From Rotaria sp. (Eukaryota), in the NCBI GenBank assembly GCA_905250055.1, contig CAJNOF010000004.1, positions 951,250 to 1,015,249 on the forward strand: 64,000 bases of DNA, in the 5' to 3' direction. This document shows positions 22,131 to 34,910 of this stretch, in pieces. Made by a program: the position numbers and the translations under genes. How positions within the stretch are numbered: position 1 is the first letter of the stretch; each line of letters begins with the position of its first letter. The notes under the pieces were generated by a model. That model saw only the letters and a list, made by a program, of their open reading frames with translations, did not search any database and had not been told where the DNA came from.

Positions 22131-22195
22131 CAATCAGAATGAAATAATATTAATATGTTCTTTTTTTTCTGTTTCGCAATTCTATCATTAGAAAA
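22131..22195. promoter_or_regulatory. Extremely short divergent (head-to-head) intergenic/5' region shared by the FLVCR-like gene (-) and the NMNAT-kinase ORF (+)
   Basis: The minus-strand ATG of the MFS gene is at 22130. The first plus-strand ATG of the fusion ORF is at 22155, and a more plausible ATG-ATG-GAT start at 22196. Either the core promoters overlap within under 70 bp or the 5' UTRs overlap. Confidence 0.3.
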
Positions 22196-23684
22196 TATGA
22201 TGGATACTAGTAAACTATTCTTGCCTTTATCAGATACAAAAAAGAATATTGTATTATTACTTAATGGTTGTTTCAATCCAATACATAATAATCACATTCG
22301 TTTACTAGAACTAGCCCGAGAACATTTAAATTCATTAAATATTTATCATGTTATTGGTGGTTATATTTCACCAGCTCATGATGCTGGTATTCTAAGAAAA
22401 TTATCTGTTCTTTATACAACATGGCAAAATCGTCTTGATATGTGTCGTTTAGCTGTTCATAATTCATCATGGATTATGGTTGATGAATGGCAAATATCTC
22501 AAGAGAAAAATTATGGTGCACAACAATCTAAACAACATTTAAGTGATTTTCTAAAAAAAATTAATCCTTCAATTCAAGTTGTATCTATTTGTGGTGGTGA
22601 TGCATTACCAAAAATGAAAGTAACATTTAAAAAAGAACTTGTTATGTGTATAATTAATCGACCAATTGATGATTTTGATTTTAATGAATGGTTTCAATCA
22701 TCAACAATAAAACCTTATCATAATAATATTATTGTTCTATATGATAATGATTGTATAAAAACTATGAGTAGTAGTTATATTCGTCAACAAATAAGTAAAA
22801 ATTTTTATGATACTCTTATTGACGTTCTTCATCCATCAGTACTTGATTATCATCAGGAACATAGTATTAATTATCGTTCATCAGATGAAACAATTCTTTG
22901 GTCAGATTTTGATGATAATGAAACTATTGAACTTGGTCAAGGTCGATGTGCTACTGTTTATGCTAAACAATATAAAAATCAACAAGTTGCTGTTAAAGTT
23001 ATTCGTGAACGTAAACAGTTTATAAATGAATCAAAAGTTTTAATATTATTAGCTAATGATACGTCTTATCATACAAATATTATTCGAATATATGGTATAG
23101 GTGATCAATTTTGTGTTATGGAAAAATGTGATATTGATCTTCTTTCATACATTAAATTAAATCGAACATCAATAAATCAAACATTACAAACCATTTTTCC
23201 AAATCAACAATGGTTTCAATTAATTGAACAAATGCTTTCTGGTTTTGTTCATCTTATTTCACTTGGAATTCTTCATCGTGATATAAAAACAGATAATATT
23301 CTTTTATTAAATATGATTGTTAAAATATCAGATTTTAGTGTATCAATTAATCAAAATTCAATAATTAAAATGCCATTAAGAGGATCCATACGTCATTATG
23401 CACCAGAAGCTATTGAAGATAAAAAAATTTATACAGAAAAAGCTGATGTTTATATGTTTGGATGTTTACTTTATGAAATAGTTCATGGTGGTGAACGTAT
23501 TTGGAGTGAAAAATCTATATCTACTGTTGTTCAAAAACGTTCAAATGGTGAAAAGCCAATATTTTCTGTACAATCTGAACCATGGTATATTGATATGGTG
23601 GTGCATGATTGTTGGGCAATGAATCCTAATCAACGATCAACATTTGAACAATTACTACAAAAAACTCGTTTGAAAAAATTATAA
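22155..23684 (+). CDS. Single-exon fusion protein: N-terminal NMNAT-like nucleotidyltransferase domain + C-terminal protein kinase domain (509 aa)
   Basis: Residues ~30-215 form the NMNAT domain: LLLNGCFNPIHNNHIRLLELA (GxFxPxH..H nucleotidyltransferase motif), VIGGYISPAHDA, WIMVDEWQ, ICGGDALPKM and SSSYIRQQI (the ISSTxIR motif). Residues ~250-505 form the kinase domain: G-loop GQGRCATVY, VAVKVI (Lys), HRDIKTDNILL (catalytic loop), DFS (in place of DFG), APE, DVYMFGCLLYEI and a conserved Arg in NPNQRSTF. No stop and no intron-like interruption across 1530 nt. Confidence 0.8.
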   Translation: MFFFFCFAILSLENMMDTSKLFLPLSDTKKNIVLLLNGCFNPIHNNHIRLLELAREHLNSLNIYHVIGGYISPAHDAGILRKLSVLYTTWQNRLDMCRLAVHNSSWIMVDEWQISQEKNYGAQQSKQHLSDFLKKINPSIQVVSICGGDALPKMKVTFKKELVMCIINRPIDDFDFNEWFQSSTIKPYHNNIIVLYDNDCIKTMSSSYIRQQISKNFYDTLIDVLHPSVLDYHQEHSINYRSSDETILWSDFDDNETIELGQGRCATVYAKQYKNQQVAVKVIRERKQFINESKVLILLANDTSYHTNIIRIYGIGDQFCVMEKCDIDLLSYIKLNRTSINQTLQTIFPNQQWFQLIEQMLSGFVHLISLGILHRDIKTDNILLLNMIVKISDFSVSINQNSIIKMPLRGSIRHYAPEAIEDKKIYTEKADVYMFGCLLYEIVHGGERIWSEKSISTVVQKRSNGEKPIFSVQSEPWYIDMVVHDCWAMNPNQRSTFEQLLQKTRLKKL

Positions 23685-25920
23685 GAAAAGAATCAGATGA
23701 GAACTATGACGCACCAATGACAAATTATTGCATACTAAAAAGACAAATATTTAGTGACATCTTTCGTCAGTAACCCATTATAAATTTTTCTTATTAAAAT
23801 AAAAACTTCAGTAAAATTTTTCAGAAGAATTTACATAGAAGATATTTTTCAATTCACTAGAAAAAAACGTATACGCAACGAAAATAAATGAAAAAGATAT
23901 TCATGACTGTTAACCGTCGATTCCAATTTCAATACCGATTCACTCAATTAAATCATATGAAAATCTCTCAATGAAAATTGAATCAGTGATTTGCTAATGG
24001 TCTGATATGGTTTTTTTTCACCCATCACCTAATAATTCGAAGACAATCATCTTGATTTATTCTTTTGTGCAGTGATGGATTTAGGACGAAAGAGCGACAC
24101 AATGCGCATTTTTCCAGTAGAAGGTGGACATGGACTTCCATGCTCAGATATGATTGGATATGACTTAGAGAAGCATTTTTAAGAAAGAAAAACATTTTTT
24201 GGAAAAAGATGCTTTTCGACAAAACCTTTTGCGTTATATATTATTCGACGCAGTTTAAATCTCCTCATTCCGAATATAATATTTTTGTCAATAAGATATT
24301 TTTCTAAAGCTAGACAACTATCTTAAAAAACTGGGTTTTTTGAAAACCTACTGTGCAGTTCAGGGATATATGCACTAACCTTAACTAGAGACATTTGATA
24401 GAAGAACATTCTAAGAAAAGTTGGAATAGTTTAGAAGCTAAATGTGAGTAGGTTGCTCATTTCACGAGACTAATCGTTCGAATGACACTGGGAAATAAAT
24501 ACTTTTTTCTCAGAAGTTAGACAAAACTGTTTACTTTTGTTATATGTCAATTTTGCTGGTGATATTACGACTTTCAGAGTAAATTTTTGGAGAACTAGAC
24601 TTTTAGTTTATTTGACAGTTATGAGAAAGTTATTCATACCATTAGATAAACTATAGATCTATGTATATTTCCCTATATTTAAATGTTGAACAAGTGCGAT
24701 TTTCCAAGTTAGCCATATGTTCGCCTAAATGTATAATATGGGATGAAGGGAACTCAGGATGATCAATTCTTCATTTTGAAGTATTTTTTCGTTTTTTTCA
24801 GCAGAAAATGCTTAGAAATGAGCCGATACGACCCCTAATTTGACTTAGAAACACGTTTTTTGTGACTTTGATCGCTTTCATTTATGAAAATCCTAGATAC
24901 ATCACTACTTTCATGCATATTTGCTCAATCCTTCGATAAATTCTACGAGCATGATTTCATATTCTTTGTAAGTTTGTTTTATTTCCAGGATTTTCCAAAG
25001 AAAACAAAAGTTTTTGAACGAAGATTTTGTTTCACGCGCATATTTTTCTGTGTTAAAATGACACTTAAATCAATAAACTTTGCTATAGATTTGGTCCTTC
25101 TTGAACTTTCCAGGACATAAGAATTTGCTATAAACTAAACATGATCATTTAAGATCTCCATCGAGTTCGACGATACCAATATTATTCGAAACTACGATTC
25201 CGGTTCGGCTTTCAAAATATCACGTAGAACCAAAATCGTTATATCATCAAATAGATACGAAAATTTTAATTATTTCTTGTTTGACAAAGTTGCACTAGTG
25301 AACTGTTGAGATTAAAGACGAACTGTTTCAATACTTAAACAAAAGAATATTTTGTATATATACTGAAATCTTCAGTCTTAAGAATGAAAAAATGAAGATT
25401 TTTTGACATAGGTTTAAGGACTTTTATATCTAACTGATGATTAAGCGGTTTCATATCGGTTCATATTTCCAGGTTTTTTCGAACTCCTGAGTTTTACTAC
25501 CATCTGTCATGATGAACGCCTAAGCCACAACACTCCTCTATCACAAATGGTGACAGATAGTGTAAACAGTCGAATTGAAGATAGTTGTCCTTCGTTCTTC
25601 TTTTATGCTGACTGTAATATAAAAGGATTATAACCTTTTGTCATCGAAATGTATTATACTAGTAGTTAGGAATGCAGCAAAAACGGAACTCATATTGATG
25701 AATTCTTGTTTTGACAATGTTAGCAATTCTATCGTATTTCACATTTTTATCTCGCACGGATTGCACTAACAGCCTTTTAAACATTTTCTTAAAATAAATT
25801 GTGTGTATAATATTAATGAAAACAGACTTTTCGATATCGATTCAAACATCATTATGATTGAAAATATTATTCATAGTAGTCAAGAAGTATTTCGATATAT
25901 CAATATCCGAATGTTACGTG

Positions 25921-28200: not shown

Positions 28201-30142
28201 AACAACTAACTTTATTGATTAACCAAATTATTCACCAAACGTGTATGATGTCAGCCTTTGTCGCATCCAAAGTGAAAGTGGATACAGAAGTGCCGGCAAG
28301 TACGTATCGTTATTACCGTATAGACATGGGTATGTTTAGAGCAGGAGACAGCGCCTTCTTTGAATTGATGATAAGCTTTACTACTAAGTTCGTGATAAGT
28401 AATAGATGTATGCAATCTTCTAGAAAATATATACGAAAGGGCAACACTCGTGCATTCATTTGGACGACCAATATGAACTACAAGCTGACTCGAGTCGTGA
28501 AGTCTCGTACAGAAAGGTCGGAACAGAGCAACACTAGAGAAGTTCAATAATGAGGTGATACGATAATGAGCCAGAGTTTCAAAATATTTGTTTTGACGAT
28601 GTTCTTCATGAATGCCGTGTCACCTTGAATTCATTGAACCTGGAACACCAAAATATTACTTCAGTGTTCTCGGTGTCGATCCGATCAACGAGTTTGACTT
28701 TATACCACGAATCCTTGATATAATTAGTGGTATTGTTCGATAAACAGTTTTTGGATGTCTTCTCTTTTTATTTTGCATCTCTCTTGAATTAGATTTAAGA
28801 ACTGAAAGTATAATATGACGGTAGCATTCACTAATAAACAATTCGGCTTATTATATTTGCTAATAGCTTCTGGGTTTTCGTATGTCGATTTTTAGAAATA
28901 ATTTTTTCCATTTACCTCAGCGAAAGTTCACAATGCTATCACCATCAATCGACTTTACAAAATTTAGGGTTTCAACCATTCTTCTAACGTTCCATAAGAT
29001 CATATCTGAAAAGTTGTCGATAAAAGTATTAGATGCATCACGAGATGTAAAGATAATGGTGACAAAATCTGAATATTTCTCTTCCCAACCTCCTGTCCCA
29101 CAGTGGACAGCCTGGCGATAAAATCGATTTCAGAGATCTGAAGCTATTATGTAACTGATATGAAAGTTGCTAGGTATCTGCAATTAACTATACCTTGAAT
29201 TCTAATTAGAGACAACTAGTCATCTTGTAGCACCACCCAAAAAGTAGGTAAAATAGGCGAATATCTCTAATAGAGAGCTAGATAAGTAGAATGCATATTT
29301 CAAATTGACGTTTTAATTATATTAATTCGATATTTTTATAGTTATTTGGCGTTGTATATTTATTAAATATACTACAGGCATTTCGTTCTTTTTTAAGTTT
29401 TTATTTTTGATGTAACAGGACTAAAAGCATATTTATCATATACTAGAAGATAACGACTGCTAAATAGTGCAACTGTTTCGCCGGATTTTTCCAGGACTTT
29501 TACTTGAGTTTTAATTTACTCTCTGACAGAACGTGCCATCAGCCAATTTTGATGAATGCATATAAATGCGAATATAAGCCCTTATTGAGATACGGCGTCT
29601 CAATTATAGTCTTTTATCCACAATCATTCAAAGCAACTGGTGTAATAACGATGTATCTTTCACATCGAATTAAGTTTCCAATAGATAATACTAACTCAAA
29701 TATATAATATTTTAAAACTTCTACGTCGATTGTTTGGTTCTAAACATAATCCATAGATGAGTGAAGAGCACAGCCATTGTACTGTTGTATTCCGCAAAGA
29801 AAAATGCTCATAAGTCGAGATCCGCTCAATCGATTTTAATAATTTTTTTATTATTTTACTGATCTAAGGATGGTCATTCACTTCTGAAAAAATCAATTTC
29901 CCACGTGTTTTAGTTTCCGTGTAATCATAGCAACAGTGTTAAATACCTAGCTTCTAATGCCACCTGTCAGAAGAAAACCAATTTTTTTTTATTCCATTGC
30001 TTTTTTTTAAAATTAATTGTAGAGCTAGAGTTGTAGTATTCATCAAGAGCTTTTAGAATATGCCTTTATTTTTAGCTTCAGAGAAAGTCTTATGAATGAA
30101 AAACTGTTGATAATGAGCGTTGAGACACTTTTTCATTTTTGC

Positions 30143-30660
30143 GTAGGGCGACATTAAAATCATCGGCGTTTCGTTTGGAGAATTTTTTTTTGTTGTAATT
30201 TGGTTGGATATCAGAGAGAACTAAGATAAAAATAATTTGAGAAATAAAAGAGGTTTGTTCCATAAAGTTCGTTAGTGCAAGAATTTTATATAAGATAAAA
30301 AAAATGAATTTTGAGACGAAATGTAGGGCGAAATTTTTAATTTTGTTTTTGCTATAGCTCAATGAATACTTAACTGTTTGCAACAAAAATTTGATCGTTG
30401 TTCAGGCTCATAGAGTAGAGTAATACTCCAAAAACTCAATTGAAAATATCTCTCCGTTCTGAAGAAAATTCAATTTTACTAGAAAAACGTAGGGCGCAGA
30501 GCCCCAACCAGGCCACTAGGCCTGCCTGCCTGCCTGGGCCTGCCTGCCTGTCACAGGCACAGGCCACGATTTTTAGGCCTGGCCTGTCACAGGCAGGCCA
30601 GGCCGACCCCTTCGACAGGCCAGGCAGGCCGCCTAAAAATGCCAGGCCGCCTGGCCTGTC
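30143..30660. repeat. Left boundary block of a composite repeat locus: three GTAGGGCGA(c/a)(a/c)ttttt motifs followed by a ~165-bp GC-rich (GCCTGCC)n/(GGCAGGCC) block
   Basis: Motif copies at 30143, 30323 and 30489. At 30497-30660, ccaggccactaggcctgcctgcctgcctgggcctgcctgcctgtcacaggcacaggcc...caggcaggccaggccgacc...caggccaggcaggccgcc is about 65-70% GC, against roughly 30% for the surrounding window. Confidence 0.6.
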
Positions 30661-30796
30661 TAATTTTTCTTCGATATAAAACTTTTACCGCATAATTGGG
30701 ATTTATTGCTAGAAAAAAATTCAGTTGAGTCAGTTTTCAAGAATGATATTTGAATATAAAGAATTTGACCAATACTTGAGAATAAATATTGACGAT

Positions 30797-31025
30797 ATAC
30801 AGTGCTGTGAAAAATTATAGAATCACTAGCTTAATTTTAGGTTTTAGCTGATTCTCTACTAACTTAAATCGATGAATAAAACAAAAACACTGCTAGTGTA
30901 TGCATTCAAGTACTTGAATGCATACACTAGCAGTGTTTTTGTTTTATTCATCGATTTAAGTTAGTAGAGAATCAGCTAAAGCCTAAAATTAAGCTAGTGA
31001 TTCTATAATTTTTCACAGCACTGTA
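30797..31025. repeat. Near-perfect long palindrome (hairpin), ~113-bp arms, centre ~30911
   Basis: atacagtgctgtgaaaaattatagaatcactagcttaattttagg...cactgctagtgtatgcattcaag|tacttgaatgcatacactagcagtg...cctaaaattaagctagtgattctataatttttcacagcactgtat. Only a single mismatch was seen between the arms. Confidence 0.8.
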
Positions 31026-32756
31026 TGTAAATGATCAAATCTATTACTAATATGAAAAGGTTATTACCATAATGAAGAGGTTCAATAAGTAATGGAACCT
31101 CTACCCCTCGAAAAATTTGTTTTTTCCTACCCAAAATTAATTGAGAAGGGTTTCGAAAGTGATCTCTGGTAGAATTAGGTCTGTTAATCCTCTTTGATCT
31201 ACACTCAGGTCGTTTGAAACAATCAATTAGTGTATTATATCCCATTGTCGATGATAATTAGATGTATTTAGCCATCAATATGATAGTCGGCTATATTGAT
31301 TTTCATATAGTTTGATAGAAATATTTAAGTGTTCTGAAATGCTAGTAACACGTTAAAAGAAAGGAACTAACCATTAAAAAACGTCCAAGAAAAACTTTTC
31401 AGCGGACTTTATTTTAAGTGCATTTCTTGACTGATATTTCGCTAGTTTTGATTAGAGGAAGTAAAGTCTGGATAAAAACTAAAATCATCTATATAGACCG
31501 GCATTTAGTATTAAGTTGACTTATGTGAATTTGGAATCTGTTTATGAACTTTTTTCGTAGAAAATCACTCTAGTCCTGCTCAGAATCAAGTCGAAAAATG
31601 AGTATCGACAAAAAAGTGTATCAGTAGTTTAAGCAGACGCCATGTTGTGCTATAGTGTTATTGTGCAGCTGTAGAAATTTTTTCTCGTGCTGAAACAACT
31701 TTTCGATGTGATTCTCTTTTTACCTTAACCCTGAGGATCTGTGATGATCTATTCCACGAAAAAAATCAATGAAAATATTGAAAAGTCACAAAAGTCGTCT
31801 CAGCGTTAAATACTAATTCATAACATGACCTTAGCTTTGATCCAAATTATACTTCTTCTGATTATAATCTACGAATATATCAATTAAAGACATTCACAAT
31901 TATGTCTGGGGACAAGTTTTCATTGGACATTTTTCAGTAGTCAGTTTGCTTTTTTTCGATATGTTGTTGGCATTTCAGAGTTCTTAAAAGCTTTTATCAA
32001 ACTACACGAAAATTAGGCGAATTGACTATCATAATGATGGTTAAATCGACCTGATTATCATCAATAGTCGGATATAATATACTTATTCATTATTTTAAGT
32101 GATCCAAGACAATGTAAATAATCGCCATAGAGCCAATTTCACCGCCCATCACTTTCGAAACACTTGTGAAATGGTTTTACGTAGAAAAAACCAAATATTT
32201 CGAGCGAATCAGTTTTATTATTGGATGATTCGTCTTTTCTATTTGTCACTATTTGCTCCAGAAAATGTTTGAGTCTCAGCTAGTTCAGCTGAAGCTGAAC
32301 GTTTTCTTTGTATTAAATTTGGTAGCTACTGCACGTAGTCCTTCTCTCGATTGTAGTACTATGAATGACATTTTTGTCTGCCAGATCCATCCAAAATATT
32401 CTCGAACAAGAACAAGATTGTTTTCCTGCATATTGGTATCGTTTTATTTCTTTAGTTTTCTAGATACCAATGCTTTTCAATTCATATTAAACGTAGAGAA
32501 AAAATCCATACTGTCAACACCTTTATAATGTGCGCACCTTCCTATAGTGAACAGTTTTAGTTGGCTTTGAGTAGTTTCTGCTCGAAATCGATGACTTCCT
32601 AATGAAAGCCTCCTTATAATGATATATAAATGTTTGTTTTCTGACTTTGACCTACTACAAAAAAAGTGCCTGACGATAGCGATTTTCGTTCGACTTCTGT
32701 TCTCATATACTCTGATGTATATATCAGAAGGGAACATCTCTGTATAATGAACACTG

Positions 32757-33003
32757 AAATACACCCATATTCAAAAGGTTCCCGGACTGTTTTTATTTCA
32801 TAAAAATGAAATGAACTGCACTCATGAGTTTATATTTTGGGTGTGAGGTGTGGGTGTAGGTGTAAGTCTAAAAGAATACCAGACTTACACCTACACTCAC
32901 ACCTACACCCACACCTCACACCCAAAATATAAACTCATGAGTGTAGTTCATTTCATTTTTATGAAATAAAAACAGTCCGGGAACTTTTTGAACATGGGTG
33001 TAT
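32757..33003. repeat. Second near-perfect long palindrome (hairpin), ~115-bp arms with a (GGTGTG/CACACC)-rich core, centre ~32874
   Basis: acacccatattcaaaaggttcccggactgtttttatttcataaaaatgaaatgaactgcactcatgagtttatattttgggtgtgaggtgtgggtgtaggtgtaagtc-taaaagaatacca-gacttacacctacactcacacctacacccacacctcacacccaaaatataaactcatgagtgtagttcatttcatttttatgaaataaaaacagtccgggaac... One or two mismatches. Confidence 0.8.
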
Positions 33004-33137
33004 TTTATTGAATGTTCACATCAGGAAACTTTTATTTGTATCATCTAAATTGATTCTATTGACTTGTTGAACTTTCTACGATGATTAATGCTAAATTATA
33101 TCTTATTATTACTATGATATTTGATTTAAAAAAAGTA

Positions 33138-33322
33138 GACAGGCCTTGCCAGGCAGGCCGAGCGAAACGACAGGCAGGCAGGCCAGGCCGAAGAAAAAAG
33201 ATGACAGGCACAGGCAGGCCGGGATGGATGTAGGCCTGTCATAGGCAGGCCAGGCCTACAAAAAGTGAGCCTGGTTGGACCTCTGGTAGGGCGACATTTT
33301 TGTGATACAAAGTGTAGGGCGA
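33138..33322. repeat. Right boundary block of the composite repeat locus: GC-rich (GGCAGGCC)n block followed by two GTAGGGCGAC motifs
   Basis: At 33138-33285: gacaggccttgccaggcaggccgagcgaaacgacaggcaggcaggccaggccgaag...gacaggcacaggcaggccgggatggatgtaggcctgtcataggcaggccaggcctac. Motif copies at 33287 and 33315. The GC-block composition and the atgacaggcacaggc sub-motif are shared with 30497-30660. Confidence 0.6.
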
Positions 33323-34910
33323 CCTTTTTTGAAGCAATGATTCACTAAAACTGCTTGATATATGAAAATAACATACATGAGCTAGCTCTGTGCCAAGAAT
33401 TGTTTCATACTAACGTGTACGATTAATAAACATTTTCAGAATATTTTCTTCAAAAAATCATTATTTTGAAGTAAAAACCATTATCATTGTGTTCACTTAG
33501 TTTTATATCGTGAATCTCCACAACAACACAAGAAAGTGTTGGGAAAATATGATTTTCATGCACAATCGACATCGCTCTGTCAAACGCAACGCTTAGTCCT
33601 CTCTCATTATTAAATTTATTTTTATCGATTTTTTTGCTTAAATGGTACACTGGCTGTGCTCTTCACTCAGATAGTTTCCAACTTTGGAGCTCTTATTAGG
33701 GAACTTTGAGAACTCACCAGGGAATCTCCACAGATGCTAAAGAATTTTGACTCGAAATTTTGCATATATAATGCTCTCAATGTGACTACTTCATTCTGGA
33801 ATTTTCAGCTATTTGCATTGTTTCGATCGTGAGATATGCATATTCAAAATTTACGTAGCTGTGTGAAAAAGCAAGTTTTGTGCTGGTATTCGTATCGCAC
33901 GACAAAAGCAACAAAAAAAGCTAAAACTTTTAGTATGACATAGTTACATAAAGAACATTATTTTTCAAAGTTTCAAGCTGGAATTCAAGGTCCACTATCA
34001 AAATGACCTGAGTGAAAATTTGAGGTTTTGTTGAAAAACTCATTAAAAAATCTATTTTTTAAGTAATCTTACAAGTAAAAGGGCTTTGACAAACATAGAT
34101 AATCAATATCAAGTGCGAAGAATAAGTACACAAGATACCAAGTTTTTAGCTACTGTACTTGAAGAAATTGTTCTTGGCTTCCTTTTTCTATCCGCTGTGC
34201 ATCATATTTCTATGCCGGTTATTGCTGAACCGTTTCTATCCGTCATGTTTTTGATGGAATTTTTGCAGACGTTCCTCTTATTCTGAAATTGCCGCAGAAT
34301 CTAATTCTTCATGAACTCTTGAAACGTGCAATGATTTGCTAGACTCAGAAACACCCACACAATCTCCTTCATCTTCACCTCTTTTAAACTCTAGTGAAAA
34401 AAGATTTGAATGTAGCACATTGAAACTTGCTTTTGACATGTTTTATCAAAGAAAAATGGCATATCTAAAAAAAAATTCTAAACCGGCACAGACCGACCGG
34501 TCTTATCATCCCAACCGGTTCCAACTCTGAGTGAGACTGCCTTTAATTATATCATACTCGCTAGATATCATATAAATTTATGTATTCATGATGTATGTGT
34601 TCTCTTGAGGTAAAAATTGTATAGACTGTTTCATTATCTAAATTTTATTAAAAAAGAAACTAATTATTATTCTTTGCAACCAATAAACCATTATTATTTT
34701 AAAATAATCTATTTTGTCAAAAGACAGTTTGCAATGATACACGTAATTTTCTGCTGATTTATTATTAATTATTACAATCATAGTACAACAACGAATATGA
34801 ATAAATCAAAATAAACATCTCTTAAACAATGAAGTATGATGTAAAGCATACCAAGTAACTTTCAATACATCCTCTGATATTGGCATTATTTTTGTACGGA
34901 TAAATTTCGC

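What the first reader, a model, noticed from the sequence alone, without database searches (positions are those of the whole stretch)
30143..33322. About 3.2-kb composite repeat locus bounded by GC-rich GCCTGCC/GGCAGGC blocks and five GTAGGGCGA motifs
Two ~150-bp blocks of roughly 65-70% GC, against roughly 30% elsewhere, flank the two hairpins. Both share (G)GCCTGCC/(G)GCAGGCC repeats and the atgacaggcacaggc core. Each block is adjacent to copies of a 15-20 nt motif (a/t)GTAGGGCGA(c/a)(a/c)TTTTT: three on the left, two on the right, all in the same orientation. The organisation motifs - GC block ... hairpins ... GC block - motifs looks like a structured element: a transposon with complex termini, a satellite-bounded domain, or clustered protein-binding sites. 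It is not a simple decay product. The ORF 30440-30679 is just the translated GC repeat.
Basis: seen in the sequence. Interest (0 to 1): 0.55.

Follow-up and report, generated by a model that had tools for sequence, protein, structure and literature searches.

The report
Nested DNA transposons in a rotifer genome
The locus is a stack of non-coding cut-and-paste transposons nested inside one another in a bdelloid rotifer genome: the two GC-rich blocks are the inverted ends of one hAT-like element, and two of the five "motifs" are simply the 8-bp target duplication it made. This is ordinary biology, although it is neatly documented by sister haplotypes that lack the insertion.

Summary
The window comes from Rotaria sp. 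'Silwood-1', a bdelloid rotifer.

- **Outer element.** A 3,910-bp insertion (29759-33668) has 24-nt terminal inverted repeats and a 4-bp duplication (AGAT). It is absent from four other Silwood-1 haplotype or individual assemblies and from the sister species Silwood-2. It is present in one other individual. It is therefore a recent, polymorphic transposon insertion.
- **Backbone motifs.** The ~1.1-kb backbone of the outer element carries four same-orientation GTAGGGCGA(C)NTTTTT units.
- **Inner element.** A 2,789-bp non-autonomous element (30497-33285) sits in the third unit. Its termini are CAGAGCCCCAACCAGGC and CAGAGGTCCAACCAGGC, which fit the hAT hallmark YARNG. The ~160-bp GC-rich subterminal regions are the two "GC blocks". 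They are inverted relative to each other.
- **Target duplication.** The inner element is flanked by a perfect 8-bp target-site duplication, GTAGGGCG. Motifs 3 and 4 are that duplication.
- **The hairpins.** The two "hairpins" are unrelated to each other and are separately nested elements. One is a 224-bp palindrome with Tc1-like ends and a TA duplication. It is absent in the other filled haplotype.
- **Coding and classification.** Nothing in the locus has coding capacity. The hAT-like assignment rests on one copy, because no whole-genome search was possible.

Interest is low.

The parts
29759..33668 (.). OUTER element: a 3,910-bp composite non-autonomous TIR transposon of unassigned superfamily. 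The backbone is about 1,113 bp (29759-30496 plus 33294-33668).
   Evidence: The 24-nt TIRs GAGTGAAGAGCACAGCCATTGTAC / GAGTGAAGAGCACAGCCAGTGTAC match at 23 of 24 positions. Haplotypes L002, L005, L006 and L007 read straight through the site as CCAT-AGAT-AGTTT. Silwood-2 loci L240-L243 also lack the element. L001 (individual RSIL802) carries it.
29755..29758 (+). Left copy of the outer element's target-site duplication, AGAT.
   Evidence: The empty alleles have a single AGAT. The filled allele has AGAT on both sides. A 2-bp reading (GA) with a 25-nt TIR cannot be excluded from one copy.
33669..33672 (+). Right copy of the outer element's target-site duplication, AGAT.
30143..30151 (+). GTAGGGCGA unit 1, internal to the outer element.
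30323..30331 (+). GTAGGGCGA unit 2, internal to the outer element. In L001 it reads GTAGGGCGG.
30489..30496 (+). Left copy of the 8-bp target-site duplication GTAGGGCG of the inner element.
   Evidence: It directly abuts the left terminus CAGAG.... The same junction is present in L001.
30497..33285 (.). INNER element: a 2,789-bp non-autonomous hAT-like transposon.
   Evidence: The termini CAGAGCCCCAACCAGGC (30497-30513) and CAGAGGTCCAACCAGGC (reverse complement of 33269-33285) match at 15 of 17 positions. It has a perfect 8-bp TSD. No ORF has a Pfam match.
30497..30668 (+). Left GC block: the left TIR plus a subterminal array of GCCTGCC/GGCAGGC and CAGGCC repeats. GC content is 64.5%.
   Evidence: As single-stranded DNA it folds with z = -8.5. 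It contains a (GCCT)7 micro-array.
33130..33285 (-). Right GC block: the right TIR plus a subterminal repeat array, inverted relative to the left block. GC content is 58%.
   Evidence: The outer 17 nt (I19) and inner 16 nt (I22: GGCCTGTCTAATTTTT / GGCCTGTCTACTTTTT) both pair in inverted orientation. The global alignment score is 70 inverted, 48 direct, and 13 +/- 5 for shuffles.
33286..33293 (+). Right copy of the 8-bp TSD GTAGGGCG.
   Evidence: Removing 30497-33293 restores GTAGGGCGACATTTTT, which matches units 1 and 5.
33314..33322 (+).
30800..31023 (.). Hairpin 1: a 224-bp perfectly palindromic miniature element with Tc1-like ends (CAGTGCTGTG...CACAGCACTG), flanked by TA/TA.
   Evidence: I1: 99% complementary, no spacer. 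It is absent from L001, which reads GACGATATATATAAATG across the site.
31107..32204 (.). An old long-inverted-repeat element. Its arms are 31107-31488 and 31825-32204, roughly 70-75% identical.
   Evidence: (I3, I4). No clear TSD was found.
32757..33005 (.). Hairpin 2: a foldback element with 114-nt arms about 95% identical. Its centre consists of head-to-head degenerate GGTGTA/ACACCC arrays.
   Evidence: (I2). It has no sequence similarity to hairpin 1.

Best explanation
The locus is a nest of non-autonomous class II (cut-and-paste) transposons in Rotaria sp. 'Silwood-1'.

**Proposed history.**
1. A ~1.1-kb TIR element, the 'outer' element, carried four same-orientation GTAGGGCGA(C)NTTTTT units.
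2. In some ancestral copy it was hit in its third unit by a hAT-like element, the 'inner' element. The inner element's ends are CAGAG..CCAACCAGGC followed by ~150 bp of GC-rich GGCAGGCC/CAGGCC repeats.
3. Staggered 8-bp cleavage of the target, followed by repair, duplicated GTAGGCG's full 8-mer, GTAGGGCG. This produced the apparent 'motif - GC block ... GC block - motif' symmetry.
4. The inner element also contains an old long-IR element and a foldback.
5. The whole composite was later mobilised in trans through the 24-nt outer TIRs. It landed at an AGAT site between a PTP-like phosphatase gene and an F-box gene, where it is still polymorphic.
6. After that, a 224-bp palindromic element with Tc1-like ends inserted at a TA. 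Alternatively, it was excised in the other lineage.

**Shown:** the boundaries, TIRs and TSDs, the empty sites for the outer element and for the palindrome, and the absence of coding capacity.

**Inferred:**
- the hAT superfamily assignment;
- that the GC-rich subterminal repeats are transposase-binding sites, by analogy with the subterminal repeats of Ac (recalled knowledge);
- the order of events.
For: **Organism.** Exact protein matches to Rotaria sp. Silwood1.

**Outer element.**
- The empty site is CCAT-AGAT-AGTTT in L002, L005, L006 and L007.
- The filled allele reads CCAT-AGAT-[GAGTGAAG...CTTCACTC]-AGAT-AGTTT.
- Sister-species loci L240-L243 are also empty, so empty is the ancestral state.
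- The filled state is independently assembled in individual RSIL802 (L001, GCA_905331505.1; assembly identities from PMC7943196).

**Inner element.**
- The blocks are inverted, with both their outer ends (15 of 17) and inner ends (15 of 16) matching.
- A perfect 8-bp direct repeat GTAGGGCG abuts both termini.
- Deleting the element plus one repeat copy restores GTAGGGCGACATTTTT. That agrees with paralogous unit 1 (GTAGGGCGACATT) and with the unit at 33314 (GTAGGGCGACCTTTTT). The flanks on both sides also align with unit 2 (77% over 44 nt).
- An 8-bp TSD plus YARNG termini are the stated hallmarks of hAT (PMC3014272; PMC10741241).
- Published hAT TIRs such as CAGAGCCGGYCC, CAGGGGTCCCCAAAC and CAGTGGTTCCCAACCT resemble these termini.

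**Palindrome.** It is flanked by TA, ends in CAGTGCTG, and is precisely absent in L001.

**Coding.** No ORF in the locus has a family match or a homologue.

**Age.** The arms of the nested IR element are only roughly 70-75% identical. Filled and empty haplotypes differ by about 1-2%. The nest must therefore predate its arrival at this site.
Against: - Only one genomic copy of each element, plus its allele, could be examined. No other copy exists in the window or in about 214 kb of further Rotaria DNA, and no whole-genome rotifer search was available. 'Family' status, TSD variability and an autonomous partner are therefore unverified.
- The inner 'TIRs' are much longer (about 160 nt) than the 5-27 bp usual for hAT. 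Their middle parts align poorly. The inner half of the left block has the same orientation as the right block (D1, 93% over 27 nt).
- The TSD GTAGGGCG fits the hAT/Ac target consensus nTnnnnAn (recalled) only at position 2.
- The TSD falls exactly on a repeated motif. That is improbable (about 1%) for random insertion and is unexplained.
- The outer element's TSD length (2-4 bp) and superfamily are unresolved.
Confidence: 0.8

Rival explanations
1. The GC-ended inner element is a Mutator-like (MULE) or other 8-bp-TSD superfamily element (P, Merlin, Zisupton) rather than hAT. The ~160-bp GC blocks would then be true long TIRs.
For: The blocks are 156-172 nt long and inverted end to end. MULEs have long TIRs (which can exceed 300 bp) and TSDs of 7-12 bp (PMC10741241), a range that includes 8.
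Against: Both termini read CAGAG, which is the hAT hallmark YARNG. They resemble published hAT TIRs. Strong identity is confined to the terminal 17 nt, and the rest is a shuffled array of short motifs in both orientations, as in hAT subterminal regions. From recalled knowledge, MULE TSDs are more commonly 9-11 bp and P-element ends begin CATG.
Confidence: 0.12
2. One reading: motifs + GC blocks + hairpins form one integrated structured element. The GTAGGGCGA units would be functional outer parts of its termini, for example protein-binding sites.
For: All five motifs lie within 3.2 kb, in one orientation, and nowhere else in the window. One hairpin lies about 130 bp inside the left GC block and the other about 125 bp inside the right one.
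Against: - The motifs are direct repeats while the blocks are inverted. That is the geometry of TSD plus TIR, not of a symmetric terminus.
- The mobile unit defined by the empty sites extends about 385-350 bp beyond the motifs and ends in unrelated 24-nt TIRs.
- Hairpin 1 is dispensable, because it is absent in L001.
- The two hairpins share no sequence.
Confidence: 0.05
3. The GC blocks are simple GC-rich satellite or microsatellite expansions, or foreign (bacterial) DNA fragments, unrelated to transposition.
For: There is a (GCCT)7 micro-array in the left block. The composition contrasts strongly with the 29% GC host. Bdelloids are known for horizontal gene transfer (PMC7943196 introduction).
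Against: - Tandem Repeats Finder reports no array beyond 31 bp.
- The two blocks have matching inverted outer and inner ends plus a flanking 8-bp duplication.
- The 24-mer shared by both blocks has no match in 596 Gb of prokaryotic genomes or in viral contigs.
- The translated block has no homologue.
Confidence: 0.03

Closest known systems
Non-autonomous hAT elements and hAT-derived MITEs (for example Ds relative to Ac, and the hAT-N families of Anolis)
   Same: An 8-bp target-site duplication, and termini that begin CAGAG (YARNG). There is a short well-conserved terminal inverted repeat of 17 nt, followed by subterminal arrays of a short repeated motif. The element has no transposase, so it would be mobilised in trans. 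The TIR sequence resembles published hAT TIRs (CAGAGCCGGYCC, CAGGGGTCCCCAAAC, CAGTGGTTCCCAACCT).
   Different: The subterminal regions are unusually GC-rich (58-65% in a 29% GC genome), and they are inverted as whole ~160-bp blocks. The TSD does not fit nTnnnnAn at position 7. No autonomous partner or second copy was seen.
Tc1/mariner-derived palindromic MITEs
   Same: Hairpin 1 is flanked by a TA duplication and begins CAGTGCTG, which is identical to the first 8 nt of the C. elegans Tc1 TIR (recalled). It is polymorphic between haplotypes.
   Different: The whole element is a perfect 224-bp palindrome with no internal spacer. No related transposase or second copy was found here.
Nested or composite transposons mobilised as one unit (for example Anolis hobo_AC elements carrying other transposon fragments, PMC3014272)
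   Same: An outer TIR pair moves a cargo made largely of older nested transposons.
   Different: Here the carrier is itself non-autonomous and only about 1.1 kb. More than 70% of the mobilised DNA is cargo.
Drosophila Foldback (FB) elements
   Same: Long inverted termini built from short repeated sub-motifs. This is what 'transposon with complex termini' suggests.
   Different: FB termini are long regular tandem arrays (hundreds of bp to kb) with a 9-bp TSD (recalled). Here the arrays are about 150 bp, irregular, carry hAT-type CAGAG tips, and have an 8-bp TSD.

Membership tests
hAT superfamily (inner element 30497-33285) | 8-bp target-site duplication | tested here: met
   GTAGGGCG at 30489-30496 and 33286-33293 matches at 8 of 8 positions and directly abuts both termini. 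The criterion comes from PMC3014272 and PMC10741241.
hAT superfamily (inner element 30497-33285) | Terminal motif 5'-YARNG | tested here: met
   Both ends read CAGAG. The criterion comes from PMC3014272.
hAT superfamily (inner element 30497-33285) | Short TIRs (5-27 bp) | tested here: inconclusive
   The terminal 17 nt match at 15 of 17 positions, which is within range. However, inverted similarity continues through about 160 nt of GC-rich repeats and resumes at the inner edge, where 15 of 16 match.
hAT superfamily (inner element 30497-33285) | Transposase with a hAT C-terminal dimerisation domain (in the element or in an autonomous partner with the same ends) | not testable with these tools
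   This copy has no ORF with a Pfam match, so it is non-autonomous. No rotifer whole-genome search was available to look for a partner.
hAT superfamily (inner element 30497-33285) | Multiple copies with different 8-bp TSDs, or an empty site | not testable with these tools
   There are no further copies in the window or in 214 kb of other Rotaria loci. The metagenome scan gave only chance hits. Only a paralogous 'empty site' argument is available.
hAT superfamily (inner element 30497-33285) | Repbase rule for non-autonomous elements: same TSD length and termini that align over positions 1-11 with at most 1 mismatch to a classified element | tested here: not met
   Compared by eye with the few hAT TIRs printed in PMC3014272, the best agreement is 7-8 of 11 positions. 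Repbase itself was not searched, so this is a very partial test. The rule comes from PMC4455052.
Mutator-like elements (inner element) | Long TIRs and a 7-12-bp TSD | tested here: inconclusive
   Blocks of 156-172 nt and an 8-bp TSD fall within the stated ranges (PMC10741241). The CAGAG tips and motif-array structure favour hAT.
Tc1/mariner (hairpin 1, 30800-31023) | TA target-site duplication and TIRs | tested here: met
   The filled allele reads TA|CAGTGCTGTG...CACAGCACTG|TA. The empty allele in L001 has the same length as the predicted empty site, with one substitution. The TA criterion comes from PMC3014272.
Generic TIR (class II) transposon (outer element 29759-33668) | TIRs at the exact boundaries of a presence/absence polymorphism, with a duplicated target | tested here: met
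   The 24-nt TIRs match at 23 of 24 positions. AGAT is duplicated in the filled allele and single in four empty Silwood-1 loci. The Silwood-2 loci are also empty.
Satellite or tandem repeat | Head-to-tail arrays of a unit | tested here: not met
   Tandem Repeats Finder finds only (GCCT)7 (31 bp) in the left block and nothing in the right block.

The most novel reading that the evidence does not exclude
The GTAGGGCGA(C)NTTTTT units may be more than passive backbone sequence. They could be a preferred, possibly sequence-specific, landing site for the GC-ended hAT-like family. Alternatively, they could be a protein-binding array that the outer transposon spreads around the genome. The exact coincidence of the 8-bp duplication with the motif core has about a 1% chance under random insertion into the 1.1-kb backbone, and it is the only hint.
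Probability: 0.1. Interest if true: 0.45.

Novelty: new member of a known kind. Interest (0 to 1): 0.2.

Why it matters
This is mainly a clean-up. An apparently elaborate 'structured locus' resolves into standard transposon anatomy: TIRs, TSDs and nesting.

There is modest value beyond that.
- It is a well-resolved example of a recently mobilised composite DNA transposon, still polymorphic within the species and absent from the sister species, in an anciently asexual bdelloid rotifer.
- At least two other polymorphic class II insertions lie in the same 10 kb: the palindrome with Tc1-like ends and a piggyBac-type MITE.
- This agrees with the published conclusion that bdelloid TEs are recently active (PMC7943196). 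That paper documented insertion polymorphism chiefly for LTR elements.
- The elements are probably in existing automated repeat libraries as unclassified repeats. The boundaries given here would let them be classified.

Tried and rejected
1. **Protein search with the translated GC-block ORF (79 aa) and with a 98-aa ORF spanning two motifs.** The aim was to fish other copies from gene calls on public contigs. There were no hits.
2. **Metagenome scan with CAGAGNNCCAACCAGGC.** It returned 120 or more hits, nearly all in contigs above 40% GC (only 3 of the loci held were below). None had BLAST similarity to the locus beyond the 17-mer, so they are chance hits.
3. **Viral-contig scans** with the shared 24-mer (0 hits) and with GTAGGGCGAMMTTTTT (111 single chance hits, no BLAST similarity).
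4. **Prokaryotic-genome scan** with the 24-mer, to test a bacterial origin. There were 0 hits.
5. **Rfam.** Nothing reached gathering thresholds. The relaxed scan gave only sub-threshold miRNA-precursor matches on the palindromes. That is the generic behaviour of any perfect hairpin, so it was rejected as evidence of miRNA genes.
6. **tRNA scan.** None found.
7. **Pfam on eight ORFs of the locus.** Nothing credible.
8. **A Helitron reading of the outer element** (insertion between A and T without a TSD) was considered. It was rejected because the element has 24-nt perfect-ended TIRs and a 4-bp direct duplication.
9. **Superfamily assignment of the outer element.** The key paper (Bao et al. 2009) is not held, so it is left unclassified.
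10. **Look-up of the window's own contig** failed or was withheld. Heterozygosity within a single clone is therefore not demonstrated; what is shown is polymorphism among the assemblies.
Full report
**Source organism.** The window is AT-rich (28.9% GC) and eukaryotic. Three of its ORFs are exact matches to predicted proteins of the bdelloid rotifer Rotaria sp. 'Silwood-1'. That species was sequenced as several single-individual assemblies plus 10x linked-read assemblies by Nowell et al. 2021 (PMC7943196). Their availability made haplotype comparison possible.

**Checking the observation.**
- All five GTAGGGCGA sites are present at the stated positions on the + strand. Four are exact. The one at 30489 reads GTAGGGCGC. 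There are none elsewhere in the window, nor in 278 kb of Rotaria DNA held apart from the allelic copy.
- The two GC-rich blocks are real. They are 64.5% and 58-61% GC, against 32% for the interior.
- The blocks hold all 8 GGCAGGCC octamers of the window and 20 of its 22 GGCCTG/CAGGCC hexamers.
- The two large hairpins are real (I1 99%, I2 94%).
- Minor corrections: the 15-mer 'core' occurs only on the right, and the shared part is ACAGGCACAGGC. Only motifs 3 and 4 actually touch the blocks.

**The key structural point.** The two GC blocks are inverted relative to each other, whereas the motifs are direct.
- The outermost 17 nt pair: 30497-30513, CAGAGCCCCAACCAGGC, against the reverse complement of 33269-33285, CAGAGGTCCAACCAGGC.
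- The innermost 16 nt also pair: GGCCTGTCTAATTTTT against GGCCTGTCTACTTTTT (I19, I22).
- A global alignment scores 70 in inverted orientation, 48 in direct orientation, and 13 +/- 5 for shuffles.
- Immediately outside the two CAGAG tips lies the same 8-mer in direct orientation, GTAGGGCG (30489-30496 and 33286-33293).

This is the canonical geometry of terminal inverted repeats plus a target-site duplication. Removing 30497-33293 regenerates ...AGAAAAAC-GTAGGGCGACATTTTT-GTG.... Its 3' continuation agrees with unit 1 (GTAGGGCGACATT) and with the last unit (GTAGGGCGACCTTTTT). Its flanks on both sides align with unit 2 (77% over 44 nt). The left copy as it stands departs from the unit immediately after position 8. 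Motifs 3 and 4 are therefore one original unit, split and duplicated by an insertion.

**What the inserted (inner) element is.**
- It spans 30497-33285 (2,789 bp) and has no ORF with a family match.
- An 8-bp TSD and YARNG termini are given in the literature as the structural hallmarks of the hAT superfamily (PMC3014272; PMC10741241). CAGAG fits YARNG at both ends.
- The termini resemble published hAT TIRs such as CAGAGCCGGYCC, CAGGGGTCCCCAAAC and CAGTGGTTCCCAACCT.
- From memory, hobo, Hermes and Tol2 also begin CAGAG.
- The GC-rich part behind each tip is an irregular array of GCCTGCC/GGCAGGC and CAGGCC motifs. It is not a satellite: Tandem Repeats Finder finds only (GCCT)7.
- By analogy with the subterminal repeats of Ac/Ds (recalled knowledge), these motifs are most likely transposase-binding sites. 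That is inference.
- The left block is itself internally palindromic (I17; DNA fold z = -8.5). Its inner half has the same orientation as the right block (D1, 93% over 27 nt), so the termini are not simple mirror images.
- A MULE-type assignment (long TIRs, 7-12-bp TSD) cannot be excluded but is less likely.

**The surrounding (outer) element.** Loci around the neighbouring phosphatase gene were fetched from other assemblies and compared with the window.
- Four Silwood-1 loci run straight from window 29758 to 33669. They are L002 (GCA_905250075.1), L005 (RSIL801), L006 and L007. They read CCAT-AGAT-AGTTT.
- The window reads CCAT-AGAT-[GAGTGAAGAGCACAGCCATTGTAC ... GTACACTGGCTGTGCTCTTCACTC]-AGAT-AGTTT.
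- The 3,910 bp at 29759-33668 are therefore a discrete insertion with 24-nt TIRs (23 of 24 identical) and a 4-bp duplication. A 2-bp reading with a 25-nt TIR is also formally possible.
- Orthologous loci of the sister species Rotaria sp. 'Silwood-2' (L240-L243) also lack it, so the empty state is ancestral.
- The filled state is independently present in individual RSIL802 (L001). There the junction GTAGGGCG|CAGAGCC is identical.
- After subtracting the inner element, the outer backbone is 1,113 bp. It carries the four GTAGGGCGA units 381, 561, 727 and 755 nt from its left end, all in one orientation.
- Its superfamily could not be assigned.

**The hairpins.**
- Hairpin 1 (30800-31023) is a perfect 224-bp palindrome that ends CAGTGCTGTG...CACAGCACTG and is flanked by TA on both sides. 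L001 lacks exactly these 224 bp plus one TA. This is a TA-duplicating palindromic miniature element with Tc1-like ends that is itself polymorphic.
- Hairpin 2 (32757-33005) is a foldback with 114-nt arms about 95% identical. Its centre consists of head-to-head degenerate GGTGTA/ACACCC repeats.
- Between the two hairpins lies a third, older inverted-repeat element. It spans 31107-32204 and its 382-nt arms are roughly 70-75% identical.
- The hairpins share no sequence with each other or with the blocks. Their roughly symmetrical placement is coincidental.

**Order of events (inferred).** The arms of the old IR element have diverged by roughly 25-30%. Filled and empty haplotypes differ by only 1-2%. 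The insertion is absent from the sister species. Most of the nest must therefore have been assembled in a progenitor copy elsewhere and then moved as one composite through the outer TIRs. Only the 224-bp palindrome changed state afterwards.

**Limits.**
- No tool gave access to a whole rotifer genome at the DNA level.
- Attempts to find further copies failed or gave only chance matches. These used spurious-ORF protein searches, metagenome, viral and prokaryotic pattern scans, and the held loci.
- Copy number, TSD variability and the existence of autonomous partners are therefore untested. The hAT assignment rests on the structure of a single copy.
- The exact coincidence of the TSD with a repeated motif core (about 1% under random insertion into the backbone) is unexplained. 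It is the only feature that might hide something less ordinary, namely target preference.

**Verdict.** It is a nest of ordinary non-autonomous DNA transposons. These are new, unnamed members of known kinds. Overall interest is low. The locus does have some value as a clean example of recent class II mobility in a bdelloid rotifer, consistent with PMC7943196.

Noticed in passing
window 25312-25315 (TTAA); L002 11108-11943, also L003 and L004: Other haplotypes carry an 836-bp piggyBac-type miniature element at this TTAA. Its TIR is CCCTTAAAAGCCGAA(T/A)GTCC and the TTAA is duplicated. It is absent from the window, L001 and L007. This is a second polymorphic DNA-transposon insertion within 5 kb of the locus.
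   Followed up: partly
window 32838-32924 (centre of hairpin 2): The centre holds head-to-head degenerate arrays of GGTGTA/ACACCC (TRF). These are permutations and variants of the bdelloid telomeric hexamer TGTGGG used in PMC7943196. A foldback element with inverted telomere-like repeats at its centre is curious.
   Followed up: no
L001 8572-8866 (replaces window 31363-33147): In individual RSIL802 the interior of the inner element is replaced by about 295 bp of AAACCCTTAAAGGGTTT-rich sequence followed by a single N. This is either a further nested transposon in that haplotype or a scaffolding join.
   Followed up: no
window 28535-28620: An 86-bp indel. It is present in the window and L007 and absent in L002, L005 and L006.
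   Followed up: no
L240-L243 11505-16396 (Rotaria sp. Silwood-2), matching window about 34425-34532: The sister species has about 4.9 kb of extra sequence (31% GC) between the F-box gene and the site orthologous to the insertion. It was not characterised.
   Followed up: no
window 30079-30332 versus L001: The 12 differences between the two filled alleles in the 30046-30799 segment all cluster in these 254 bp of the outer backbone. One of them changes motif 2 to GTAGGGCGG. There are none in the next 467 bp. Possible causes are contig-end error or read mixing from a paralogous copy of the outer family.
   Followed up: no
window 22155-23684 (+): An intronless 509-aa ORF. The corresponding gene in other haplotypes carries Pfam CTP_transf_like (NMNAT-type nucleotidyltransferase) plus protein-kinase domains. 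This is an unusual domain fusion.
   Followed up: no
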